NCBI GenBank assembly: GCA_964586355.1
Contig: CAZPGO010000030.1
Location: forward strand, 20,421 to 84,420
Direction of reading: 5' to 3'
Source: an uncultured archaeon
GTDB lineage: Archaea > Iainarchaeota > Iainarchaeia > Iainarchaeales > CSSED10-239
DNA: 64,000 nucleotides
A program made the translations under genes and the position numbers. This document shows positions 2,352 to 15,575 of the stretch, in pieces. How positions within the stretch are numbered: the first letter of the stretch is position 1; every line of letters starts with the position of its first letter. The notes under the pieces are model-generated. The model had not been told where the DNA came from. It searched no databases and saw nothing but the letters and a program-made list of their open reading frames with translations.

Positions 2352-4856
2352 TTATTCACCATTAAATTCACTTAGGGATTTTTGTTCTGAGTCGTAAATT
2401 ACTGGTTTTTCTGTTTCTTGAGAATCTATAGTATTATTATCATTATTTTTTAATTTTAAGAAAGAATCATTTTCTAGATCTCTTTGAATAATTAAAGCTC
2501 TATTTATTACTGAGTTTTTAATACCAGCTAGTTTTGCAACCTGTATACCATAACTTTTGTTAATTCCACCTTTTTGAAGTTTGTGAAAGAAGTGAAGAGA
2601 GTCTCCTTCTTCTTTTGCAGTTACGTGAAAATTATTAATACCAGTATAAAGCTCTTGCAATTTATTTAAGATATGATAATGAGTAGCAACAAGAGTTTTT
2701 GAACAAACACTATTATTTAGCTCTTCAACAATAGCCCAAGCAAGACTAAGTCCATCATATGTGCTTGTACCTCTTCCTATTTCGTCCAAAATAACTAAAC
2801 TATTGTTTGTGGAATTATTTAAAATATAAGCAACTTCTGACATTTCAACTAAAAAAGTGCTTTGCCCATGTATAATATCATCAGAAGCACCTACTCTAGT
2901 AAAAACAGCATCAATCTCGCCTATTTTTGCATAACTTGCAGGAACAAAGCATCCACTAAGCCCTAAAATAACTCCGACACAAACACTTCTCATATAACTG
3001 CTTTTACCTGCCATATTTGGACCTGTTATTATCATCGTTTTATTTGTTTTGGATAAATCACAATCATTTGGAATAAAATGTGTTAATTTTTCTATTATCG
3101 GGTGTCTTAGATCTTTAAAGATTAATTGATCTGAATCATCAATAATAGGTCTTACATAATCAAAATTATTACTTACAAAAGAATGTGAAAAATAAACATC
3201 TAATTTTGCAATCAAAGAAGAAAGCACTTTAATTTCTTCTTGATATTCTAAAGTTTCTTTACAAAGATTAGTAAATATTTCAAACTCTAATTCATTTCTT
3301 TTATCTTTTGCAGATAATATTTGTTGTTCTTTAAAAGAAAGTTCTTCAGTTGTATATCTTTCAGAATTTACTAAAGTTTGTTTTCTTATAAAATATTTTG
3401 GAACTTGATTTGCTTGGGATTTTGGAATTTCTATATAATATCCAAATATTTTATTAAATTTTAATTTTAAAGATTTAATATTTGTTTCAGATTTTAGTTT
3501 TGCTTCAAATTCTGATAACCAAGAACTTGAGTTTTTTGTTATATTTATTAGATCATATAGTTCTTTAGAAAAACTTGGTTTTATGAAATTACCTTCTCTT
3601 AAACTAAAAGGAGGATCTTTTACAATTGTTTGTGATATTTTTTCTGTTAAGGTATCTAAACTTGGCATTTCTAATAATTTTCTTAAATTTTCTGATTTTG
3701 TTTCTAATAGGGTTTTTTTAATTAGAGGGATTATTTCTAGACTTTGTTTTAAAGATATAAGATCTCTTGCATTTGCATTTCCAAAACCAATTTTACAGAT
3801 TATTTTATCAAGATCTCCAATATAAGAAAGATTATTTTTTAATTCCTCTTGTAGAAATAGATCTGCTCTTATCTCATCAACAGAATCATGAATTTGTTTT
3901 AGTTTTTGTTTATCTGTTAATGGATGAAGTAGATCAAAATATAGTTTTCTATAACCCATTGCTGTTTTTGTATGGTTTATTAAACTAAATAAACTATTTT
4001 TTATAGAATCATCTTTTAGATTTGAGACTAGTTCTAGATTTTTAATTGTTTTTCTATCTAGTTTTAAAAATTTAGATTTATTGAATTTTTTAATAGTTTT
4101 AATATAATTAAGATCACAAAATTGTGTTTCTTTTAAATAATTTAGAGCATTATATGCAGAAATTATTGAAGCATCTTCTTCAAAACCAAAACTCTCTAAT
4201 GATTTTAAATTAAAATGTGTTAGTAATTTTTCTGTTGATGTTTGTAGATCTGTGTTTATGGTATAATTAATTATTATATTGTTAATGTGTTTTTTTATTT
4301 TTTCAATATTTTTATAATCATCTAAAAGATTTTTAGTAACTATTAGTTCTTTTGGTTTTATAATTATTAATTGATCTAATAAATTATCAAAGGAATCAAT
4401 AACGCCTGATTTAAAATCTCCTGTAGTAATATCTACTATAGAAAAACCATAATTCTTTTTTGCTTTTACTATTGAACATAAAAAATTATTTTCATAATCA
4501 TTATTAAAAATAGTGCTTGGAGTTATTATTCTTGTTACTGCTCTTTTAACTAATCCTTTTGCTAACTTAGGATCTTCTATTTGCTCACAAATAACAACTT
4601 TTTTTCCTGCTTTTATTAATTTAGTAATATATGGATCTATTGAGTGATAAGGAATTCCTGCAAGTGGTGCTTCTCCAGTACCTTTTCCTCTTTTTGTTAG
4701 AGTTATGTTTAATATCTGTGCAGCTATTTTTGCATCATCATAAAACATTTCATAAAAATCTCCTGCTCTAAAAAGCAATACACCATCAGGATATTCTTTC
4801 TTGGTTTGAATATATTGCCTCATCATCGGAGTTAAGTTAGAATTTAGATCTTGCAT
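2352..4856 (-). CDS. mutS: DNA mismatch repair protein MutS (bacterial MutS1 type).
   Basis: The MutS N-terminal mismatch-binding motif is present (MMRQYIQTKKEYPDGVLLFRAGDFYEMFYDDA). Walker A GPNMAGKSSYMR and the ST-rich DEIGRGTSTYDG motif are present. It is 834 aa. Confidence 0.9.
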   Translation of the reverse strand: MQDLNSNLTPMMRQYIQTKKEYPDGVLLFRAGDFYEMFYDDAKIAAQILNITLTKRGKGTGEAPLAGIPYHSIDPYITKLIKAGKKVVICEQIEDPKLAKGLVKRAVTRIITPSTIFNNDYENNFLCSIVKAKKNYGFSIVDITTGDFKSGVIDSFDNLLDQLIIIKPKELIVTKNLLDDYKNIEKIKKHINNIIINYTINTDLQTSTEKLLTHFNLKSLESFGFEEDASIISAYNALNYLKETQFCDLNYIKTIKKFNKSKFLKLDRKTIKNLELVSNLKDDSIKNSLFSLINHTKTAMGYRKLYFDLLHPLTDKQKLKQIHDSVDEIRADLFLQEELKNNLSYIGDLDKIICKIGFGNANARDLISLKQSLEIIPLIKKTLLETKSENLRKLLEMPSLDTLTEKISQTIVKDPPFSLREGNFIKPSFSKELYDLINITKNSSSWLSEFEAKLKSETNIKSLKLKFNKIFGYYIEIPKSQANQVPKYFIRKQTLVNSERYTTEELSFKEQQILSAKDKRNELEFEIFTNLCKETLEYQEEIKVLSSLIAKLDVYFSHSFVSNNFDYVRPIIDDSDQLIFKDLRHPIIEKLTHFIPNDCDLSKTNKTMIITGPNMAGKSSYMRSVCVGVILGLSGCFVPASYAKIGEIDAVFTRVGASDDIIHGQSTFLVEMSEVAYILNNSTNNSLVILDEIGRGTSTYDGLSLAWAIVEELNNSVCSKTLVATHYHILNKLQELYTGINNFHVTAKEEGDSLHFFHKLQKGGINKSYGIQVAKLAGIKNSVINRALIIQRDLENDSFLKLKNNDNNTIDSQETEKPVIYDSEQKSLSEFNGE

Positions 4857-10005: not shown

Positions 10006-10356
10006 ATAAATAATAATAGCTCTATTTTCTTTATAATCTTATTGTTTTAAGCCGAAAAAGTGCTTTGTTTTTCAAACCTTTTTGACTCTTTTTTTTTCTA
10101 GTTTTTTAGTTTTTTTAATAAATTATATTAAACAAGTGTTATTTTGGCTTGTTTTATTTATACATAAATTTATTTTTTAGATCTTTTTTTCTTCTAACCT
10201 TTTATATTTTCTAGCTTTTTTCTAATTTATACATAAGTTAGTAAAACAAACAAAACCACTTATAAAATGATTGACCTTCTATTAATTATACTTTTTTTAA
10301 AAAAAGAAATATAATGTGATCAAATATAAATCCCAAATACATACTCAACAGAAAAG

Positions 10357-12353
10357 ATGAAAAAATCACTTATAATATTTATAAAATCAAATTAGCAATA
10401 TTAAAAGCACTTGATGCAATTGAGAATCCTGATATAGATCTTGCTGATTTTATTACTAAAAAAGTTGATACTGTTTTAGTTAATGAATATTTTAATAAAA
10501 AGATTTTACCTAAGATTGATGATATTCAAAATATTATTGAAGATGTTTTAATTAAAGAAGGATTAACTAAATTAGTAAAAGCTTATGTTATTTATAGAAA
10601 ACAACATGATGATTTTAGGCAATTTTCTAAATTAATAGATAGTGTTAATGCTGTTGAAAGTTACATAAACATTTCTGATTGGCAAGTAAAAGAAAATAGC
10701 AATATGGATTATTCATTACAAGGTCTAAATAATTATTTATCTACTAAAATAATTTCTGATTATTGGATAAAAAAAATATATCCTCCAGAAATAAAGGAAG
10801 CACACGAAAAAAGGCAATTACATATACACGATCTAAGCACATTAGGACCTTATTGTGTAGGTTGGGATCTACAATTTTTATTAAGAAATGGTTTTAAGGG
10901 AGGTCTTGGTAAAATTGTTGCATCTGCTCCAAAACATTTTGATATTGCATTAGGTCAAATAGTTAATTTCATTTATACTCTTCAAGGAGAAGCAGCAGGT
11001 GCTCAAGCTTTTAGTAATTTTGATACTCTTTTAGCTCCTTTTATTTTTTATGATAATCTGGATTATAAAAGAGTAAAGGCAGATCTTGAAAAATTTATTT
11101 ATAATATGAATGTTCCAACAAGGGTTGGATATCAAACTCCATTTTCAAATATAACCTTAGATCTAACAATACCATCAACTCTAAAAAACGAATCAGTAAT
11201 AATTGCAGGAAAACCTATGGACAAAACCTATGGGGAATTCCAAGAACAAGTTGATATGTTTAATAAAGCAATTTTAGAAATTTTTTATGAAGGTGATGCT
11301 GGAGGAAACATGTTTTCATTTCCAATACCTACAATAAATGTTACTAGTGACTTTAATTGGGATAGTGATCTTGCAAATAAAATAATTGATCTAACCATAA
11401 AATATGGTACCCCTTATTTTGCAAACTTTGTAAATTCTGATATGAAACCAGAAGATGCTAGAAGTATGTGTTGTAGATTAAGATTAGATAATCGTGAGCT
11501 TCAAAAAAGAGGAGGAGGGTTATTTGGATCTAATCCTCTAACAGGATCTATTGGTGTTGTAACAATTAACCTTGCACAGATAGGTTATCTTGCAAAAACA
11601 AAAGAAGAGTATTTTGAAAGACTTGGTTATTTAATGGATCTTGCTAAAAAATCATTAGATCTAAAAAGAAAGATTGTTGAAAAGTATACAGAGGATGGAC
11701 TATACCCTTATTCTAAATACAATCTTTCACAGATACATGATAGATTTGGATCTTATTGGAAAAATCATTTTTCTACTATTGGTCTACTTGGTATGAACGA
11801 ATCTGCTGTTAATTTTTTAGGTGAAGGCATATATACAGAAAAAGGTCAGGCTTTTGCTATTGAAGTTATGGATTTTATGAGAGATAGAATACAAAAATAT
11901 CAAGAAGATACAGGAAATTTATATAATCTAGAAGCAACTCCAGGAGAGAGTACTACTTATAGATTTGCAACTTATGATAAAAAAGAGCATCCTTCAATAA
12001 TTGTTGCTAATGAAGAAAATTATCAACAAGGTGCTCAGCCATATTATACAAATTCAACACAATTACCAGTAAATTATACAACAGATATTTTTGATGTCTT
12101 GGATTTACAAGACGATTTACAATGTAAGTACACTGGTGGAACAGTTCTTCATTTTTTTATTGGTGAAAAAAAACCTTCTAGAGAAGCAATAAAATCATTA
12201 ATAAAAAAAATCTCTAAAAATTACAAATTACCATACTTTACATTTAGTCCAACATTTTCAATTTGTCCAAAACACGGATATATTTTTGGAGAGCATGAAT
12301 ATTGCCCACTTTGTGATAAAGAAATAGGGTATATAGAAAAGGAGGAAAAGTAA
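10357..12353 (+). CDS. nrdD: Anaerobic ribonucleoside-triphosphate reductase NrdD (class III RNR). It has an N-terminal ATP-cone and a C-terminal Zn ribbon. There is an apparent +1/-1 frame problem in an A6 run just after the ATG at 10357; the ORF-track start at 10704 is internal.
   Basis: The frame is open from 10320 to 12353. Upstream of the track start it encodes ...LNRKDEKITYNIYKIKLAILKALDAIENPD...LVKAYVIYRKQ, which is an ATP-cone. The CxxC...CxxC motif is CPKHGY...CPLCDKE. Confidence 0.8.
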
Positions 12354-12508
12354 ATGGAAGCAAATATAGAAGAATTAAAAGCAAAAAGACAAAAATGTGA
12401 AATTTTTTCTAGAGTAGTAGGATATGTAAGAAGAGTAGATGCATGGAATTATGGTAAACAAGCAGAGTTTCATGATAGAAAATTATTTAATACAGATAAG
12501 AAGTAATT
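12354..12508 (+). CDS. Stand-alone NrdD C-terminal glycyl-radical domain (51 aa). It is in the same frame as nrdD, separated from it by a single TAA.
   Basis: MEANIEELKAKRQKCEIFSRVVGYVRRVDAWNYGKQAEFHDRK contains the RV-x-GY glycyl-radical motif and the W-N-x-GK-x-E tail typical of the NrdD C-terminus. Confidence 0.6.
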
Positions 12509-12511
12509 AAC

Positions 12512-13180
12512 ATGGAATTAAGAATAGGTGCAATAGAAAAATTTAGCACAATAGATTATCCTGACAAGATATCTTGTGCTATTTTTTTAAAAGGGTGTAA
12601 TTTTTTTTGTGGTTTTTGTTATAATAAACAACTAGTTTGTAAAGAACTATTGGACACCACTCCTGATCTTCCCCTAGAAGAACTTAAAGAATTTTTAAAC
12701 AAACGTGTTGGCTTAATTGATGCGGTTGTTGTTAGTGGTGGAGAACCAACAATATATGGCGATTCTCTTATTTCTTTTATTAGAGAGATAAAAACAAAAG
12801 GTTATCTAATAAAATTAGACACAAATGGTTCAAATCCAAAAGTATTAAAACAAATAATTTCTGAAAATTTGGTTGATTATATTGCTATGGATTTAAAAGA
12901 TTCTTTTGAAAATTATGATAAATATACTTTTGTTCCTGTTGAAAACATCAAAGAGTCTATTAATTTAATCCTAAATTCCAACATAGCTCATGAGTTTAGA
13001 GTTACCACTCACCCAGAACTAACTTTGGAGAATTTTAATATTTTATTAACTTATGTTCCTGAGCAAAAGGTTCTTGTCCAAGATTTCATGAACACCAATA
13101 CTATAAAAGAATATCCTGATGATTCTAAAACAATTTTTTCACAATTATCAAAAGAGGACAAAAGATATATTTTACGTTAA
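12512..13180 (+). CDS. nrdG: Anaerobic RNR activating enzyme NrdG (radical SAM).
   Basis: The CxxxCxxC cluster is CNFFCGFCYNKQ. It has the GGEP motif (VSGGEPTIY). It lies directly downstream of nrdD. Confidence 0.85.
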   Translation: MELRIGAIEKFSTIDYPDKISCAIFLKGCNFFCGFCYNKQLVCKELLDTTPDLPLEELKEFLNKRVGLIDAVVVSGGEPTIYGDSLISFIREIKTKGYLIKLDTNGSNPKVLKQIISENLVDYIAMDLKDSFENYDKYTFVPVENIKESINLILNSNIAHEFRVTTHPELTLENFNILLTYVPEQKVLVQDFMNTNTIKEYPDDSKTIFSQLSKEDKRYILR

Positions 13181-13204: not shown

Positions 13205-15250
13205 ATGGTTTTTGTAAATACAATAATAAGCAATTCAAATGAAAAAGAAATATTTTCTAAAGAAAAATTAACTATTTTATTATTTGAAAATATGTGTACT
13301 ATTGGTTCACCAAATTTAAATCTTGCAGAAAAACTTTCTTTTTTAATAGTTGATAAAGTTAATGCTAGTTTTTCAGAGTCTATTTCTTTTGAAAAATTAG
13401 ATGATATTATAAAAGAGGTTTTATTTAAAGAAAATCAAAAAGATCTCTTACAAGCATATATTTTTAAGAAATCAAAACCTGATCATTCTTTAATAGATCA
13501 GGAGCTTAAAGAAAACATATTAAAATTTCTTTTGAATTTAAATGATTCTGAAAATATTTCTTCTTATTTAATAAATTTAAATAGTCAATTAAATGAATTA
13601 CAGAATAACACCCATGAAAAAATAAACAAAAATATTTTTGATTATATAAGAGAGGGTTTATTTTACCCAAGTTCAAAGATTTTAAAAAGTATTTCAAAAA
13701 ATCATTATTTTTCCTCCACATTTTCTTTTCATATTGAGGATACCTTAGAGTCTATTTTTGATAATTTGTCTTTATCTAGTAAGCTTCAAAAACAAGGTCT
13801 CTCAATATCAATTGATTTAAGTAAAATAAGATCTCAAAAAGAAAAAATAAAATCTATTAATGAAAATGCTTGTGGACCTATTAAAGTTGCAAATTTATTT
13901 AGATCTGCAAAGGCTATGATTGGGTACTCTATAAAAACATCTAGTAATGTTTTTTCTATATCTATTGAACATCCAGATATAATCTCTTTAATTAATTATA
14001 ATTTTTCAGAAACCTCTGATAATTTCACAATTTTAGTTCCAAATAGATTTGTTGAAAACTATATGAATAATGAAGACTATGTTATTGAGACTGTTTTTGG
14101 TAATCAAAAAATAACTCCTTCAATAATTTTTGATCTAATTTGTTCAAAAATAGCTATTGGGGAAAAAATAAATCTTGTCTTTGTAGATCTGATGTCTAAA
14201 AAAAACCCAATCTCTTTAGAACAAAAAATTTTTTCAATTTCTTCTGTCGGTTATCAACCAGTAATTGACAAAAGTGGTTTTCTCTCGGGGGTAATTGATG
14301 TTTCAAAATTAGTAAATATTTTAGGAGATGCTAAAACTTTTGATTGGCAAAAACTAAAAGCAATTATTTGGGATTCTGTAGAATTTTTAGATAATCTTAT
14401 TGATTCTTCTAATTATATTAATGATGAATATATGCAAGCGGCAAAAGATTATAGGCAGATCTATTTGTCTATAACTGGTTTTGCTACTCTTTTATCTAAA
14501 CTAAATATTTCCTATAATAGTGATGATGCGATCTTTTTTGCAGAAACTCTATCTAATTTTATATCCTACTATGCAAAGCTAAAATCCACTGAGCTTGCAA
14601 AAGAAAGAGGTCCATTTTTAAAATTCATAAAAAGTAAATATGAACAATCCTCTTTTTCTTTTGAAAAATCTTCTATTCAAAAAACTTTGTTTTCAAATGA
14701 TCTAAGCAAATCTAAAAAATTATTAAATAATATGCCTTTAATTGATTGGGTTGAACTTAGAAATAATATTAAGAAATACGGACTTAGAAACGCAACTACT
14801 TTTGGAATAATTTTTTCTGATTTTTATTCTATTGCAAATGATTCTACTAACTCTGTTAATCCTATTTTGAGTTATAAAAGTACATATCTAATTAATGGTT
14901 ATAAATCAGAAAAAATAAAGAAAGAACTTTCCTTAACTTCCCCAGACATAAATGAAAATTGGACAGAAGAGGAAATTGATTCTTTTTTATCTAATGATCT
15001 AAAAAAGTTGTTTGTTAAAGCCAAAAATATAGATCCTTATTTTTTAATAAGATTACAATCTGTTTTTGAAAAAAATTCTGACGGGCTTACAAATATAAAT
15101 ATTTTTATTACTGATAATTATACAATCTTAGATATAAAGAATCTAATAATCGAAAGTTACATGTTAGGAAATTCCTTATTTTTGCCAGAAAAAATAAATG
15201 GTCAAAATGACTTTAATACAGATAAAAAAACGAAAAAAAATAGTTTATAA
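13205..15250 (+). CDS. Large ATP-cone-containing RNR-like protein (681 aa), possibly a degenerate class II RNR paralog.
   Basis: The N-terminal about 95 aa look like an ATP-cone (FSKEKLTILLFENMC...LQAYIFKKSK, compare a.aYi.yR). An N-x-C-G-x-I loop (NENACGPIKVANL) resembles the RNR thiyl-radical finger loop SNPCGEI but has Pro where the catalytic Glu would be. Confidence 0.35.
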   Translation: MVFVNTIISNSNEKEIFSKEKLTILLFENMCTIGSPNLNLAEKLSFLIVDKVNASFSESISFEKLDDIIKEVLFKENQKDLLQAYIFKKSKPDHSLIDQELKENILKFLLNLNDSENISSYLINLNSQLNELQNNTHEKINKNIFDYIREGLFYPSSKILKSISKNHYFSSTFSFHIEDTLESIFDNLSLSSKLQKQGLSISIDLSKIRSQKEKIKSINENACGPIKVANLFRSAKAMIGYSIKTSSNVFSISIEHPDIISLINYNFSETSDNFTILVPNRFVENYMNNEDYVIETVFGNQKITPSIIFDLICSKIAIGEKINLVFVDLMSKKNPISLEQKIFSISSVGYQPVIDKSGFLSGVIDVSKLVNILGDAKTFDWQKLKAIIWDSVEFLDNLIDSSNYINDEYMQAAKDYRQIYLSITGFATLLSKLNISYNSDDAIFFAETLSNFISYYAKLKSTELAKERGPFLKFIKSKYEQSSFSFEKSSIQKTLFSNDLSKSKKLLNNMPLIDWVELRNNIKKYGLRNATTFGIIFSDFYSIANDSTNSVNPILSYKSTYLINGYKSEKIKKELSLTSPDINENWTEEEIDSFLSNDLKKLFVKAKNIDPYFLIRLQSVFEKNSDGLTNINIFITDNYTILDIKNLIIESYMLGNSLFLPEKINGQNDFNTDKKTKKNSL

Positions 15251-15278: not shown

Positions 15279-15575
15279 ATGCCATTATTTAAAGGTCCTA
15301 TAAAAAGACCTGCAGTAAGGAAACCAAAAAAACCTACCCTGAATAAATTTGCAAATTCAAAAAAACCAAATAACTCTACACAAATAAGTAAAGATTTAAG
15401 AGAATCATTTGGAGATTTAGCAAAGTCTTTAATGCAAAACAAATCAAAACCAAAAACAAAAAGCACAATAACTAGCGAACAGCAAAAAAAGAAAGCAATT
15501 TTACTAACAAGACAAAAACAAAGAATAAAGCAAATTAAGAAAGCAAAAAAAGAAAATAAAAAAAGATCTGCATAA
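15279..15575 (+). CDS. Small, highly basic K/R-rich protein (98 aa), function unknown. It could be a nucleic-acid-binding or ribosome-associated protein.
   Basis: Composition only. No motif was recognised. Confidence 0.3.
   Translation: MPLFKGPIKRPAVRKPKKPTLNKFANSKKPNNSTQISKDLRESFGDLAKSLMQNKSKPKTKSTITSEQQKKKAILLTRQKQRIKQIKKAKKENKKRSA

What the first reader, a model, noticed from the sequence alone, without database searches (positions are those of the whole stretch)
13205..15250. Large ATP-cone protein next to nrdDG resembling a degenerate class II RNR
The 681-aa ORF directly downstream of nrdG begins with an ATP-cone-like about 95 aa segment ending in the characteristic ...LQAYIFKKSK (compare AKAYILYR). 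It also contains NENACGPIKVANLF, which resembles the thiyl-radical finger loop of class I/II RNRs (SNPCGEI / SNLCSEI). The catalytic Glu is replaced by Pro and the rest is highly diverged. It may be a pseudo-enzyme or allosteric regulator paralog, or a very divergent NrdJ. Co-location with the class III system is suggestive.
Basis: inference. Interest (0 to 1): 0.55.

Follow-up and report, generated by a model that had tools for sequence, protein, structure and literature searches.

The report
Catalytically dead class II RNR paralogue
Next to the anaerobic ribonucleotide reductase genes of a small, AT-rich (probably DPANN) archaeon lies a well-conserved copy of the B12-type reductase that has lost every catalytic residue but kept its nucleotide-effector pocket, so it is most likely a nucleotide-binding helper protein and not an enzyme.

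Summary
The 681-aa ORF (13205..15250, +) is real and is a true homologue of class II ribonucleotide reductase (NrdJ). Pfam barrel domain scores 174 bits. The AF2 model (pLDDT 83) matches T. maritima NrdJ at TM 0.65-0.72. The N-terminus is an ATP-cone (hhalign 97.6%).

It aligns to loop 1/helix B (Tm 'GKASGP'). The true finger loop is 'SSVGYQ'. All five catalytic residues are gone (C134T, N320S, C322V, E324Y, C333F in Tm numbering), and so is the C-terminal Cys tail. This holds in all 25 family members.

The gene is not decaying. dN/dS is 0.11-0.13, the same as nrdG, and the ORF is intact down to 42% identity. The three effector-binding residues of the specificity site (D179, K196, R209) are invariant.

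The family is tiny: about 3 clusters at 50% identity among 1.84 billion representatives, all unclassified archaeal MAGs. It always lies directly after nrdD, a small glycyl-radical ORF and nrdG.

Best reading: a non-catalytic pseudo-RNR, probably a dNTP-binding accessory of the class III system. The function is inferred, not shown.

By-catch: NrdD here is split, with a free 50-aa glycyl-radical peptide. The split is widespread in DPANN and CPR organisms, and one virus carries the peptide alone.

The parts
13205..15250 (+). NrdJ-like pseudo-RNR ORF, 681 aa (ATP-cone plus RNR alpha/beta barrel, no catalytic residues)
   Evidence: ORF list. Pfam PF02867 at 174 bits. TmNrdJ at E=3e-29. AF2 pLDDT 83.4 and pTM 0.80. 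Foldseek top hits are TmNrdJ at TM 0.65-0.72. dN/dS 0.11-0.13.
13205..13480 (+). Degenerate ATP-cone, aa 1-92. The canonical hairpin Lys-Arg is replaced by S9-N10 in this protein.
   Evidence: Pfam PF03477 at 23.4 bits against a 25.8 cut-off. hhalign 97.6%, E=2.6e-12. Beta-hairpin plus 4 helices in the model. 24% of positions are invariant in the clade.
13718..13720 (+). Thr172, at the position of the first redox Cys (Tm C134)
   Evidence: The column is T/S/G across the clade.
13730..13918 (+). Retained specificity-site region (helix A, loop 1, helix B; aa 176-238) with invariant D179, K196 and R209. These correspond to Tm D141, K158 and R171.
   Evidence: Alignment. All three residues are invariant in 25/25 members and 29% of the region is invariant. 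Residue roles come from the table in PMC4728125.
13859..13900 (+). C223 is a clade-invariant Cys where canonical NrdJs have Ser.
14231..14290 (+). Remnant of the finger loop and following strand (aa 343-362): S346, V348, Y350 and F359 in place of N320, C322, E324 and C333
   Evidence: The hairpin strands 343-345 and 352-354 are seen in the model.
15197..15247 (+). Disordered C-terminal tail without Cys. The ending FN(T/S)..K..(M/K)SL is conserved. It stands where canonical enzymes carry the redox Cys tail.
   Evidence: pLDDT below 50 for aa 666-681. Tails listed. Canonical tails with Cys shown.
10320..12353 (+). nrdD large subunit (ATP-cone 10320-10703 plus core 10704-12353). It ends after the Zn-ribbon.
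12354..12506 (+). Separate 50-aa ORF encoding the NrdD glycyl-radical loop (SRVVGYVRRVDAWNYGKQAEF)
   Evidence: dN/dS 0.05-0.10.
12512..13180 (+). nrdG, the radical-SAM activase of class III RNR
   Evidence: TIGR02495 NrdG2 at 176 bits against a 131 cut-off.

Best explanation
The ORF encodes a non-catalytic descendant of an ATP-cone-bearing class II (NrdJ) ribonucleotide reductase, that is, a pseudo-enzyme.

Shown:
- It keeps the RNR fold.
- It has lost the thiyl-radical Cys, the redox Cys pair, the Asn and Glu that hold the substrate ribose, the loop-2 substrate readers and the C-terminal reducing tail. It therefore cannot reduce ribonucleotides.
- It evolves under purifying selection as strong as that on nrdG.
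- It is always the gene directly after nrdD, the glycyl-radical peptide ORF and nrdG.

Inferred:
- The three side chains that hold the deoxyribose 3'-OH and triphosphate of the allosteric effector in class I/II RNRs (D179, K196, R209) are invariant, as are helix A, loop 1 and helix B around them. The protein therefore most likely still dimerises through the helix A/B bundle and binds a dNTP, or a related nucleotide, at the old specificity site.
- Its conserved but degenerate ATP-cone and its conserved C-terminal tail probably serve as interaction surfaces.
- It would then act as a nucleotide-sensing accessory, either a regulator or a buffer, for deoxynucleotide supply by the co-transcribed class III RNR.

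Sub-confidences: dead NrdJ homologue 0.97; functional and selected 0.9; binds a nucleotide at the s-site 0.5; acts on the class III RNR 0.3.
For: - **Homology and fold:**
- **Catalytic residues absent in all 25 members and in P0053:**
- **Relaxed constraint at the old active site:** positions 172 (T/S/G) and 350 (Y/F/L/M/N) vary within the clade, and replacements are mostly bulky hydrophobics such as V/I348, F359, Y420, I536 and F537.
- **Loop 2:** K202 and Q203 become G240 and Y241 (residue roles from PMC3267527).
- **Effector triad:** D179, K196 and R209 are invariant, with the same 17- and 13-residue spacing as Tm D141/K158/R171 (roles from PMC4728125).
- **Selection:** dN/dS is 0.11-0.13, against 0.13-0.19 for nrdG.
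- **Gene order:** conserved in L001-L012, L014-L016 and L021-L024, with 11-24 nt gaps and no terminator-like site.
- **ATP-cone homology:**
Against: - No binding or interaction data exist. The function is inferred from residue retention only.
- Loop 2, which normally contacts the effector base, is remodelled, so the ligand may differ or be absent.
- The ATP-cone has lost the hairpin Lys-Arg in this protein (S9-N10), so canonical ATP/dATP sensing is doubtful.
- The whole neighbourhood (XerA-like, PRC, TFIIE, CDC48, topA, Lrp) is syntenic in all loci. Adjacency to nrdG may therefore reflect shared descent in a narrow lineage and not functional coupling.
- The same split nrdD/peptide/nrdG system works without this gene in CPR bacteria and in many other DPANN archaea.
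- Another dead NrdJ-like protein (P0074) is not next to nrdDG.
Confidence: 0.5

Rival explanations
1. It is a non-catalytic scaffold or interaction protein whose role has nothing to do with nucleotide sensing. The barrel would be a stable platform, and the conserved cone, the conserved 479-527 segment and the C-terminal (M/K)SL tail would bind partners. The retained D/K/R triad would be structural.
For: - The most invariant segments include the ATP-cone (24%) and aa 479-527 (35%), not only the s-site region.
- The cone hairpin Lys-Arg is lost.
- Loop 2 is remodelled.
- The tail is disordered but has a conserved ending.
Against: Three charged residues with exact canonical spacing are invariant in 25/25 members, while the neighbouring catalytic positions drift. 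This is hard to explain by structure alone.
Confidence: 0.25
2. The dead barrel binds the free 50-aa glycyl-radical peptide of the split NrdD. It would act as a holder, chaperone or presenter to NrdG, or as radical storage, using the former AdoCbl pocket. That pocket lies where the glycyl-radical loop sits in class III enzymes.
For: - The peptide is a separate gene two ORFs upstream in every locus.
- The peptide evidently works in trans, since a virus carries it alone.
- The space next to the finger loop holds the adenosyl group in class II (PMC9531940).
- Val replaces the radical Cys, so a bound glycyl radical would not be passed on.
Against: - The split NrdD is widespread without any NrdJ-like gene: 112 of the 120 closest NrdDs, and the Falkowbacteria locus L028.
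- There is no structural or co-variation evidence.
- Complex prediction could not be run.
Confidence: 0.08
3. It is a very divergent but still active AdoCbl-dependent ribonucleotide reductase.
For: The fold and overall architecture are those of NrdJ.
Against: - The thiyl Cys, both redox Cys, the Asn, the Glu and the C-terminal Cys tail are all absent in every member.
- NCBIfam NrdJ equivalog scores are far below their cut-offs: 186 against 961 and 172 against 400.
- No cobalamin gene lies nearby, unlike P0059.
Confidence: 0.02
4. It is a decaying relic (pseudogene) of an NrdJ that became useless.
For: The catalytic residues are lost, and the family is confined to one narrow lineage.
Against: - dN/dS is 0.11-0.13, equal to nrdG.
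- The ORFs are full length and uninterrupted in 25 or more clusters, down to 42% identity.
- 130 or more positions are invariant.
- The predicted fold is confident.
Confidence: 0.03

Closest known systems
Dimeric class II ribonucleotide reductase NrdJ (Thermotoga maritima NrdJ, PDB 1XJE/3O0O; archaeal ATP-cone NrdJs such as P0031)
   Same: - Same fold (TM 0.65-0.72).
- Same domain order: ATP-cone, then barrel.
- Same helix A / loop 1 / helix B specificity-site residues (D, K, R).
- Many shared structural motifs: HPD, FLDN.ID, RN, and Q..F..D.
   Different: - No thiyl Cys, no redox Cys pair, no Asn/Glu, and no loop-2 Lys/Gln.
- The 'APTG' and 'GGG' substrate-phosphate motifs are replaced (IFSD, G-S-S).
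- No Pfam Ribonuc_red_lgN hit.
- No C-terminal Cys or Zn-finger tail.
- At most 28% identity.
- It scores at a fifth to under a half of the NCBIfam NrdJ cut-offs.
Catalytically inactive R1 homologues of betaherpesviruses (e.g. MCMV M45; cited in bioRxiv 10.1101/324590, otherwise from my own knowledge)
   Same: An RNR large-subunit homologue that has lost catalytic residues but is kept for a non-enzymatic role.
   Different: Those derive from class Ia R1 of a eukaryotic virus and act through an added N-terminal RHIM on host cell-death signalling. This protein is class II-derived, archaeal and operon-linked to a class III RNR, and it keeps its effector site.
NrdR (Zn-ribbon plus ATP-cone repressor of nrd genes; from my own knowledge)
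   Same: It uses an RNR-type allosteric nucleotide-binding module for regulation and not for catalysis.
   Different: NrdR has a DNA-binding Zn-ribbon and no barrel. Here there is no DNA-binding domain, and the cone itself looks degenerate.
Other degenerate NrdJ-like proteins found here (P0074, P0062, P0076, P0097, P0116 and others)
   Same: They are normal-length NrdJ homologues, often with ATP-cones, that lack some or all catalytic residues.
   Different: They are only about 25% identical to this family, keep the Ribonuc_red_lgN domain, and lie in unrelated gene contexts. They are probably independent losses.

Membership tests
Class II RNR (NrdJ), functional enzyme | RNR/PFL-type 10-stranded alpha/beta barrel homologous to PF02867 | tested here: met
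   PF02867 at 174 bits. 1xje at E=3e-29. Foldseek E=4e-33, TM 0.65-0.72.
Class II RNR (NrdJ), functional enzyme | Thiyl-radical Cys at the tip of the finger loop (Tm C322), with flanking Asn320 and Glu324 | tested here: not met
   The positions hold S346, V348 and Y350. The same loss is seen in 25/25 members.
Class II RNR (NrdJ), functional enzyme | Redox-active Cys pair in the active site (Tm C134/C333) | tested here: not met
   The positions hold T172 and F359.
Class II RNR (NrdJ), functional enzyme | C-terminal Cys pair or Cys-rich Zn-finger tail for re-reduction (PMC5704485) | tested here: not met
   The tail ends ...DKKTKKNSL and has no Cys. Canonical hits carry CxxC-type tails.
Class II RNR (NrdJ), functional enzyme | Specificity-site effector contacts (Tm D141, K158, R171) | tested here: met
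   D179, K196 and R209 are invariant.
Class II RNR (NrdJ), functional enzyme | Loop 2 substrate and effector readers (Tm K202, Q203, R207) | tested here: not met
   The positions hold G240, Y241 and T245.
Class II RNR (NrdJ), functional enzyme | Adenosylcobalamin binding and nucleotide reduction | not testable with these tools
   This needs biochemistry. No cobalamin genes are adjacent.
Class II RNR (NrdJ), functional enzyme | Score above the curated NCBIfam equivalog cut-off | tested here: not met
   NF006417 scores 186 against 961. TIGR02504 scores 172 against 400.
ATP-cone domain (PF03477) | Sequence homology to the family | tested here: met
   hhalign 97.6%, E=2.6e-12. Pfam gives 23.4 bits, just below the 25.8 cut-off. 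Precomputed PF03477 hits exist for most clade members.
ATP-cone domain (PF03477) | Beta-hairpin lid plus four-helix bundle | tested here: met
   The model has E6-8, E14-16, H19-33, H38-55, H62-75 and H79-89.
ATP-cone domain (PF03477) | Basic Lys-Arg pair in the hairpin and basic or aromatic residues of the last helix that bind the triphosphates (PcNrdD Lys7, Arg8, Arg87, Arg91; PMC11226230) | tested here: not met
   The canonical invariant K8 and R9 align to S9 and N10 here (x-K in most relatives). Y88 and R89 align to K88 and K89.
ATP-cone domain (PF03477) | Binds ATP or dATP | not testable with these tools
   This needs binding assays.
Pseudo-enzyme (inactive homologue kept by selection) | Catalytic motifs lost, but the gene is under purifying selection and conserved across species | tested here: met
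   dN/dS 0.11-0.13. 25 clusters down to 42% identity.

The most novel reading that the evidence does not exclude
The dead NrdJ barrel is a docking protein for the free-standing glycyl-radical peptide of the split class III RNR. The emptied adenosylcobalamin pocket, which lies where class III enzymes house their glycyl-radical loop, would hold the peptide. With Val in place of the radical Cys, it would store or protect the radical, or present the peptide to NrdG, perhaps under control of a dNTP bound at the retained specificity site. This would be a protein that parks a radical cofactor subunit, made from a retired enzyme of another RNR class.
Probability: 0.07. Interest if true: 0.85.

Novelty: new variant of a known kind. 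Interest (0 to 1): 0.55.

Why it matters
RNRs are among the best-studied allosteric enzymes. I found no description of a cellular (prokaryotic) RNR pseudo-enzyme in the searchable literature. The known inactive RNR homologues are herpesviral.

This protein has discarded the whole catalytic apparatus but has kept the specificity-site contacts invariant. That makes it a natural experiment separating RNR allostery from catalysis. It could reveal a new way in which very small anaerobic archaea sense or control dNTP supply.

It also flags an annotation problem. Such proteins are annotated as 'ribonucleoside-diphosphate reductase alpha', so metabolic reconstructions would wrongly credit these genomes with a B12-dependent RNR.

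The operon it sits in carries a split NrdD with a free glycyl-radical peptide. A 2026 review (PMC13450708) lists it as an open question whether spare-part proteins exist for glycyl-radical enzymes other than pyruvate formate-lyase.

Tried and rejected
Rejected by three alignments.
2. **My early idea that NrdD here lacks an ATP-cone and the NrdJ-like protein supplies one.** Rejected. The cone is encoded at 10320-10703, in frame, 87% identical to relatives, with dN/dS 0.15.
3. **Recoded TGA as an explanation for the 'ATG TGA' in front of that cone.** Rejected. TGA ends 5 of 51 long ORFs, and no long ORF pairs are joined by a TGA.
4. **NrdJ-like protein as an obligate partner of the split NrdD.** Rejected. 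The split is widespread without it.
5. **Small Lys-rich ORF 15279-15575 as part of the module.** Rejected. It is not conserved, and relatives have different small genes there.
6. **Adjacency of other degenerate NrdJ-likes to nrdDG.** Not found.
7. **Literature searches for prokaryotic RNR pseudo-enzymes or a split NrdD.** Nothing relevant.
8. **Bacterial promoter and terminator scan.** Uninformative for an archaeon.
9. **Mapping conservation onto the 3D model, and predicting complexes.** Not possible. Model coordinates are not exposed, and only single chains can be predicted.
Full report
**Observation.** The window is very AT-rich, about 26% GC. It carries archaeal genes, including PolD DP2, CDC48, a XerA-like integrase and TFIIE in relatives. 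The ORF at 13205..15250 (+) is exactly as described: 681 aa, starting 24 nt after the stop of nrdG. Upstream lie nrdD (NF006126, 874 bits), a 50-aa ORF matching the extreme C-terminus of NrdD, and nrdG (TIGR02495, 176 bits).

**What the protein is.** Pfam places aa 369-655 and a second stretch in the RNR barrel domain PF02867 (174 bits, cut-off 23.9). It gives a sub-threshold ATP-cone hit at aa 7-87 (23.4 against 25.8 bits). The best solved relative is the dimeric class II enzyme of Thermotoga maritima (1xje, E=3e-29, query 158-652 aligned to chain 120-618). An AlphaFold2 model built on 26 sequences is confident (pLDDT 83.4, pTM 0.80). Its best structural matches are all TmNrdJ entries (E about 4e-33, TM 0.65-0.72), followed by class I R1 proteins. 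A profile-profile comparison of the clade's first 95 residues with canonical NrdJ and NrdD ATP-cones gives 97.6% probability, E=2.6e-12, over 89 columns. The model shows the hairpin-plus-four-helix topology. The 'ATP-cone plus RNR barrel' description is therefore correct.

**Catalytic status.** The pairwise alignment to TmNrdJ can be numbered directly. C134 becomes T172, N320 becomes S346, C322 (the thiyl radical) becomes V348, E324 becomes Y350, and C333 becomes F359. MAFFT alignments with canonical NrdJs give the same columns, as does an hmmalign of 200 sequences to a canonical profile. Loop-2 residues K202 and Q203, which read the substrate (PMC3267527), are G240 and Y241. R207 is T245. The 'GGG', 'APTG' and 'PNSP' substrate-binding motifs are replaced. 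The C-terminal tail carries no Cys, whereas canonical hits end in Cys-containing tails. NCBIfam NrdJ equivalog models score a fifth to under a half of their cut-offs.

That is the end of loop 1 and the start of helix B, so the Cys there (C223) is not the finger-loop Cys. It is, however, invariant in the clade, where canonical enzymes have Ser.

**Is it a decaying gene?** No.
- The homologue search found a tight clade of 24 clusters (45-96% identity, 679-727 aa), then a gap to ordinary NrdJs at 28% or less.
- An exhaustive HMMER pass over 1.84 billion representatives found only P0001, P0023 and P0053 (42%) plus two fragments, before the score fell from 399 to 224 bits.
- All members lack the five catalytic residues.
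- Against two close relatives for which DNA was retrieved (L014 at 96% and L015 at 87% amino-acid identity), dN/dS is 0.13 and 0.12, and 0.11 between those two. For comparison, nrdG gives 0.13-0.19, the nrdD core 0.06, and the small peptide 0.05-0.10.

**What is conserved.** A published comparison table names the TmNrdJ side chains that hold the allosteric effector (PMC4728125). Asp141 contacts the deoxyribose 3'-OH, and Lys158 and Arg171 contact the triphosphate. Their counterparts D179, K196 and R209 have identical spacing (17 and 13 residues) and are invariant in 25/25 sequences. The surrounding helix A / loop 1 / helix B segment has 29% invariant positions. The inter-domain linker has 3%.

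By contrast, former active-site positions drift: 172 is T/S/G and 350 is Y/F/L/M/N. Several are replaced by bulky hydrophobics, as expected for a pocket that is no longer used.

The ATP-cone is well conserved (24% invariant). Yet the canonical invariant Lys-Arg of the hairpin, which binds the triphosphates in NrdD cones (PMC11226230), aligns to S9-N10 in this protein and to x-K in most relatives.

**Context.** Sequences matching the window's nrdD (cone and core), small glycyl-radical ORF, nrdG, NrdJ-like gene and CDC48 (opposite strand) recur in that order in loci L001-L012, where contig ends allow. Gene calls show the same order in L001-L007, L014 and L015, L016 and L021-L024. This includes the most diverged member. 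Gaps between the four plus-strand genes are 0-24 nt in the window, and no terminator-like site lies among them.

Synteny extends well beyond the operon, so adjacency alone is weak evidence of coupling. Only five species-level genomes in the GTDB representative set carry the gene, and all are unclassified 'archaeon' MAGs. One NCBI record labels the lineage's NrdD 'Candidatus Diapherotrites archaeon', a DPANN group.

**Mechanism.** I conclude that this is a pseudo-RNR. Catalysis is excluded with high confidence. Selection and the invariant effector triad argue for a retained nucleotide-binding site at a helix A/B dimer interface. The operon position suggests a role in dNTP supply by the class III enzyme, either as a sensor or regulator or as a dNTP-binding buffer. 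These last steps are inference. Loop 2 is remodelled and the cone hairpin is degenerate, so the ligand and the output are uncertain. The rival explanations are scored in their own section of this report.

**Side results.**
- NrdD is truly split. The large subunit ends after the Zn-ribbon. The glycyl-radical loop is a separate 44-63 aa ORF with different junctions in different genomes: a 50-nt gap with its own ribosome-binding site, a 20-nt gap, or overlap in another frame.
- 112 of the 120 closest NrdD large subunits lack the radical motif. They come from DPANN archaea and CPR bacteria.
- A Falkowbacteria locus shows nrdD, a separate 47-aa ORF and nrdG, with no NrdJ-like gene. The NrdJ-like gene is therefore a lineage-specific addition and not a required partner of the split.
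- One peptide (P0244) lies in a virus-like locus among capsid genes, with no NrdD large subunit or nrdG detected in the locus.
- A 2026 review states that spare-part proteins are known only for formate lyases, and that their existence for other glycyl-radical enzymes is undetermined (PMC13450708).

**Novelty.** I found no description of a cellular RNR pseudo-enzyme. The nearest analogues are the inactive herpesviral R1 homologues. About a dozen other degenerate NrdJ-like representatives turned up in unrelated contexts, so loss of catalysis in NrdJ paralogues may be recurrent. I rate this a new variant of a known kind, of moderate interest. The function is unproven, and the family is confined to a narrow lineage.

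Noticed in passing
window 10320..12353 (nrdD large subunit) and 12354..12506 (50-aa ORF); L001-L012, L014-L015, L021-L024, L028: Class III RNR is split. NrdD ends after the Zn-ribbon, and the glycyl-radical loop (SRVVGYVRRVDAWNYGKQAEF) is a separate 44-63 aa gene. Its junctions differ between genomes and its dN/dS is 0.05-0.10. 112 of the 120 closest NrdD large subunits, from DPANN archaea and CPR bacteria, lack the radical motif. A Falkowbacteria locus shows nrdD, a 47-aa ORF and nrdG. A 2026 review says spare-part or autonomous glycyl-radical proteins are known only for pyruvate formate-lyase.
   Followed up: partly
L025 7001-7156 (also L026 and L027): A 51-aa NrdD glycyl-radical peptide (P0244, 67% identical to the window's) is encoded alone in a virus-like locus. 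It sits between a 781-aa ORF with a weak phage Mu-F-like match and structural genes (Phage_capsid_4, Mtd_N). No NrdD large subunit or nrdG was detected in the locus: none of the other called genes has a Pfam NRDD hit on record, and the 175-aa ORF directly downstream matches no Pfam family. It may be a viral 'spare part' for the host's split NrdD.
   Followed up: partly
window 10314..10330: The NrdD ATP-cone reading frame (10320-10703, dN/dS 0.15) has no ATG, GTG or TTG start. It is preceded by 'ATG TGA TCA AAT ATA'. The same sequence occurs in two independent assemblies (L014, L015). A JGI gene call of the identical protein begins 'MWSNINP', so it read the TGA as Trp. TGA otherwise behaves as a stop in the window. 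Possible explanations are a non-canonical start, termination-reinitiation, or local read-through.
   Followed up: partly
L014 about 2969-3931 (also L002, L005-L010 and L021-L024); absent at window about 11135: Many relatives carry a 321-aa insertion in nrdD exactly after 'PTRVGYQ'. It begins with Cys and ends '...ITGN' before Thr, and the flanks rejoin seamlessly. This looks like an intein, but Pfam finds no intein domain. The window's nrdD lacks the insertion.
   Followed up: partly
P0074 (L018 8001-9983), P0062 (L017 542-2524), P0059 (L020 6742-8757), and P0076, P0097, P0110, P0114, P0116, P0117, P0149, P0158, P0161, P0189: Other normal-length NrdJ homologues, often with ATP-cones, also lack some or all catalytic residues. 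P0074 (ESSGC at the five positions) stands among archaeal ribosomal genes. P0062 has the finger loop deleted and lies next to glutaredoxin and DsbD-like genes. P0059 keeps the thiyl Cys and the Glu but lacks both redox Cys, and lies next to a cobalamin adenosyltransferase gene. Degenerate NrdJ paralogues may be recurrent.
   Followed up: partly
window 15279..15575: A 98-aa Lys-rich ORF lies just downstream of the NrdJ-like gene. It has no Pfam hit and is not conserved across the clade. Relatives have an unrelated ~92-aa hydrophobic ORF at that position.
   Followed up: yes
L025 1504-4287: The virus-like contig encodes a 928-aa protein that contains an intein with a LAGLIDADG endonuclease. The host protein was not identified.
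   Followed up: no
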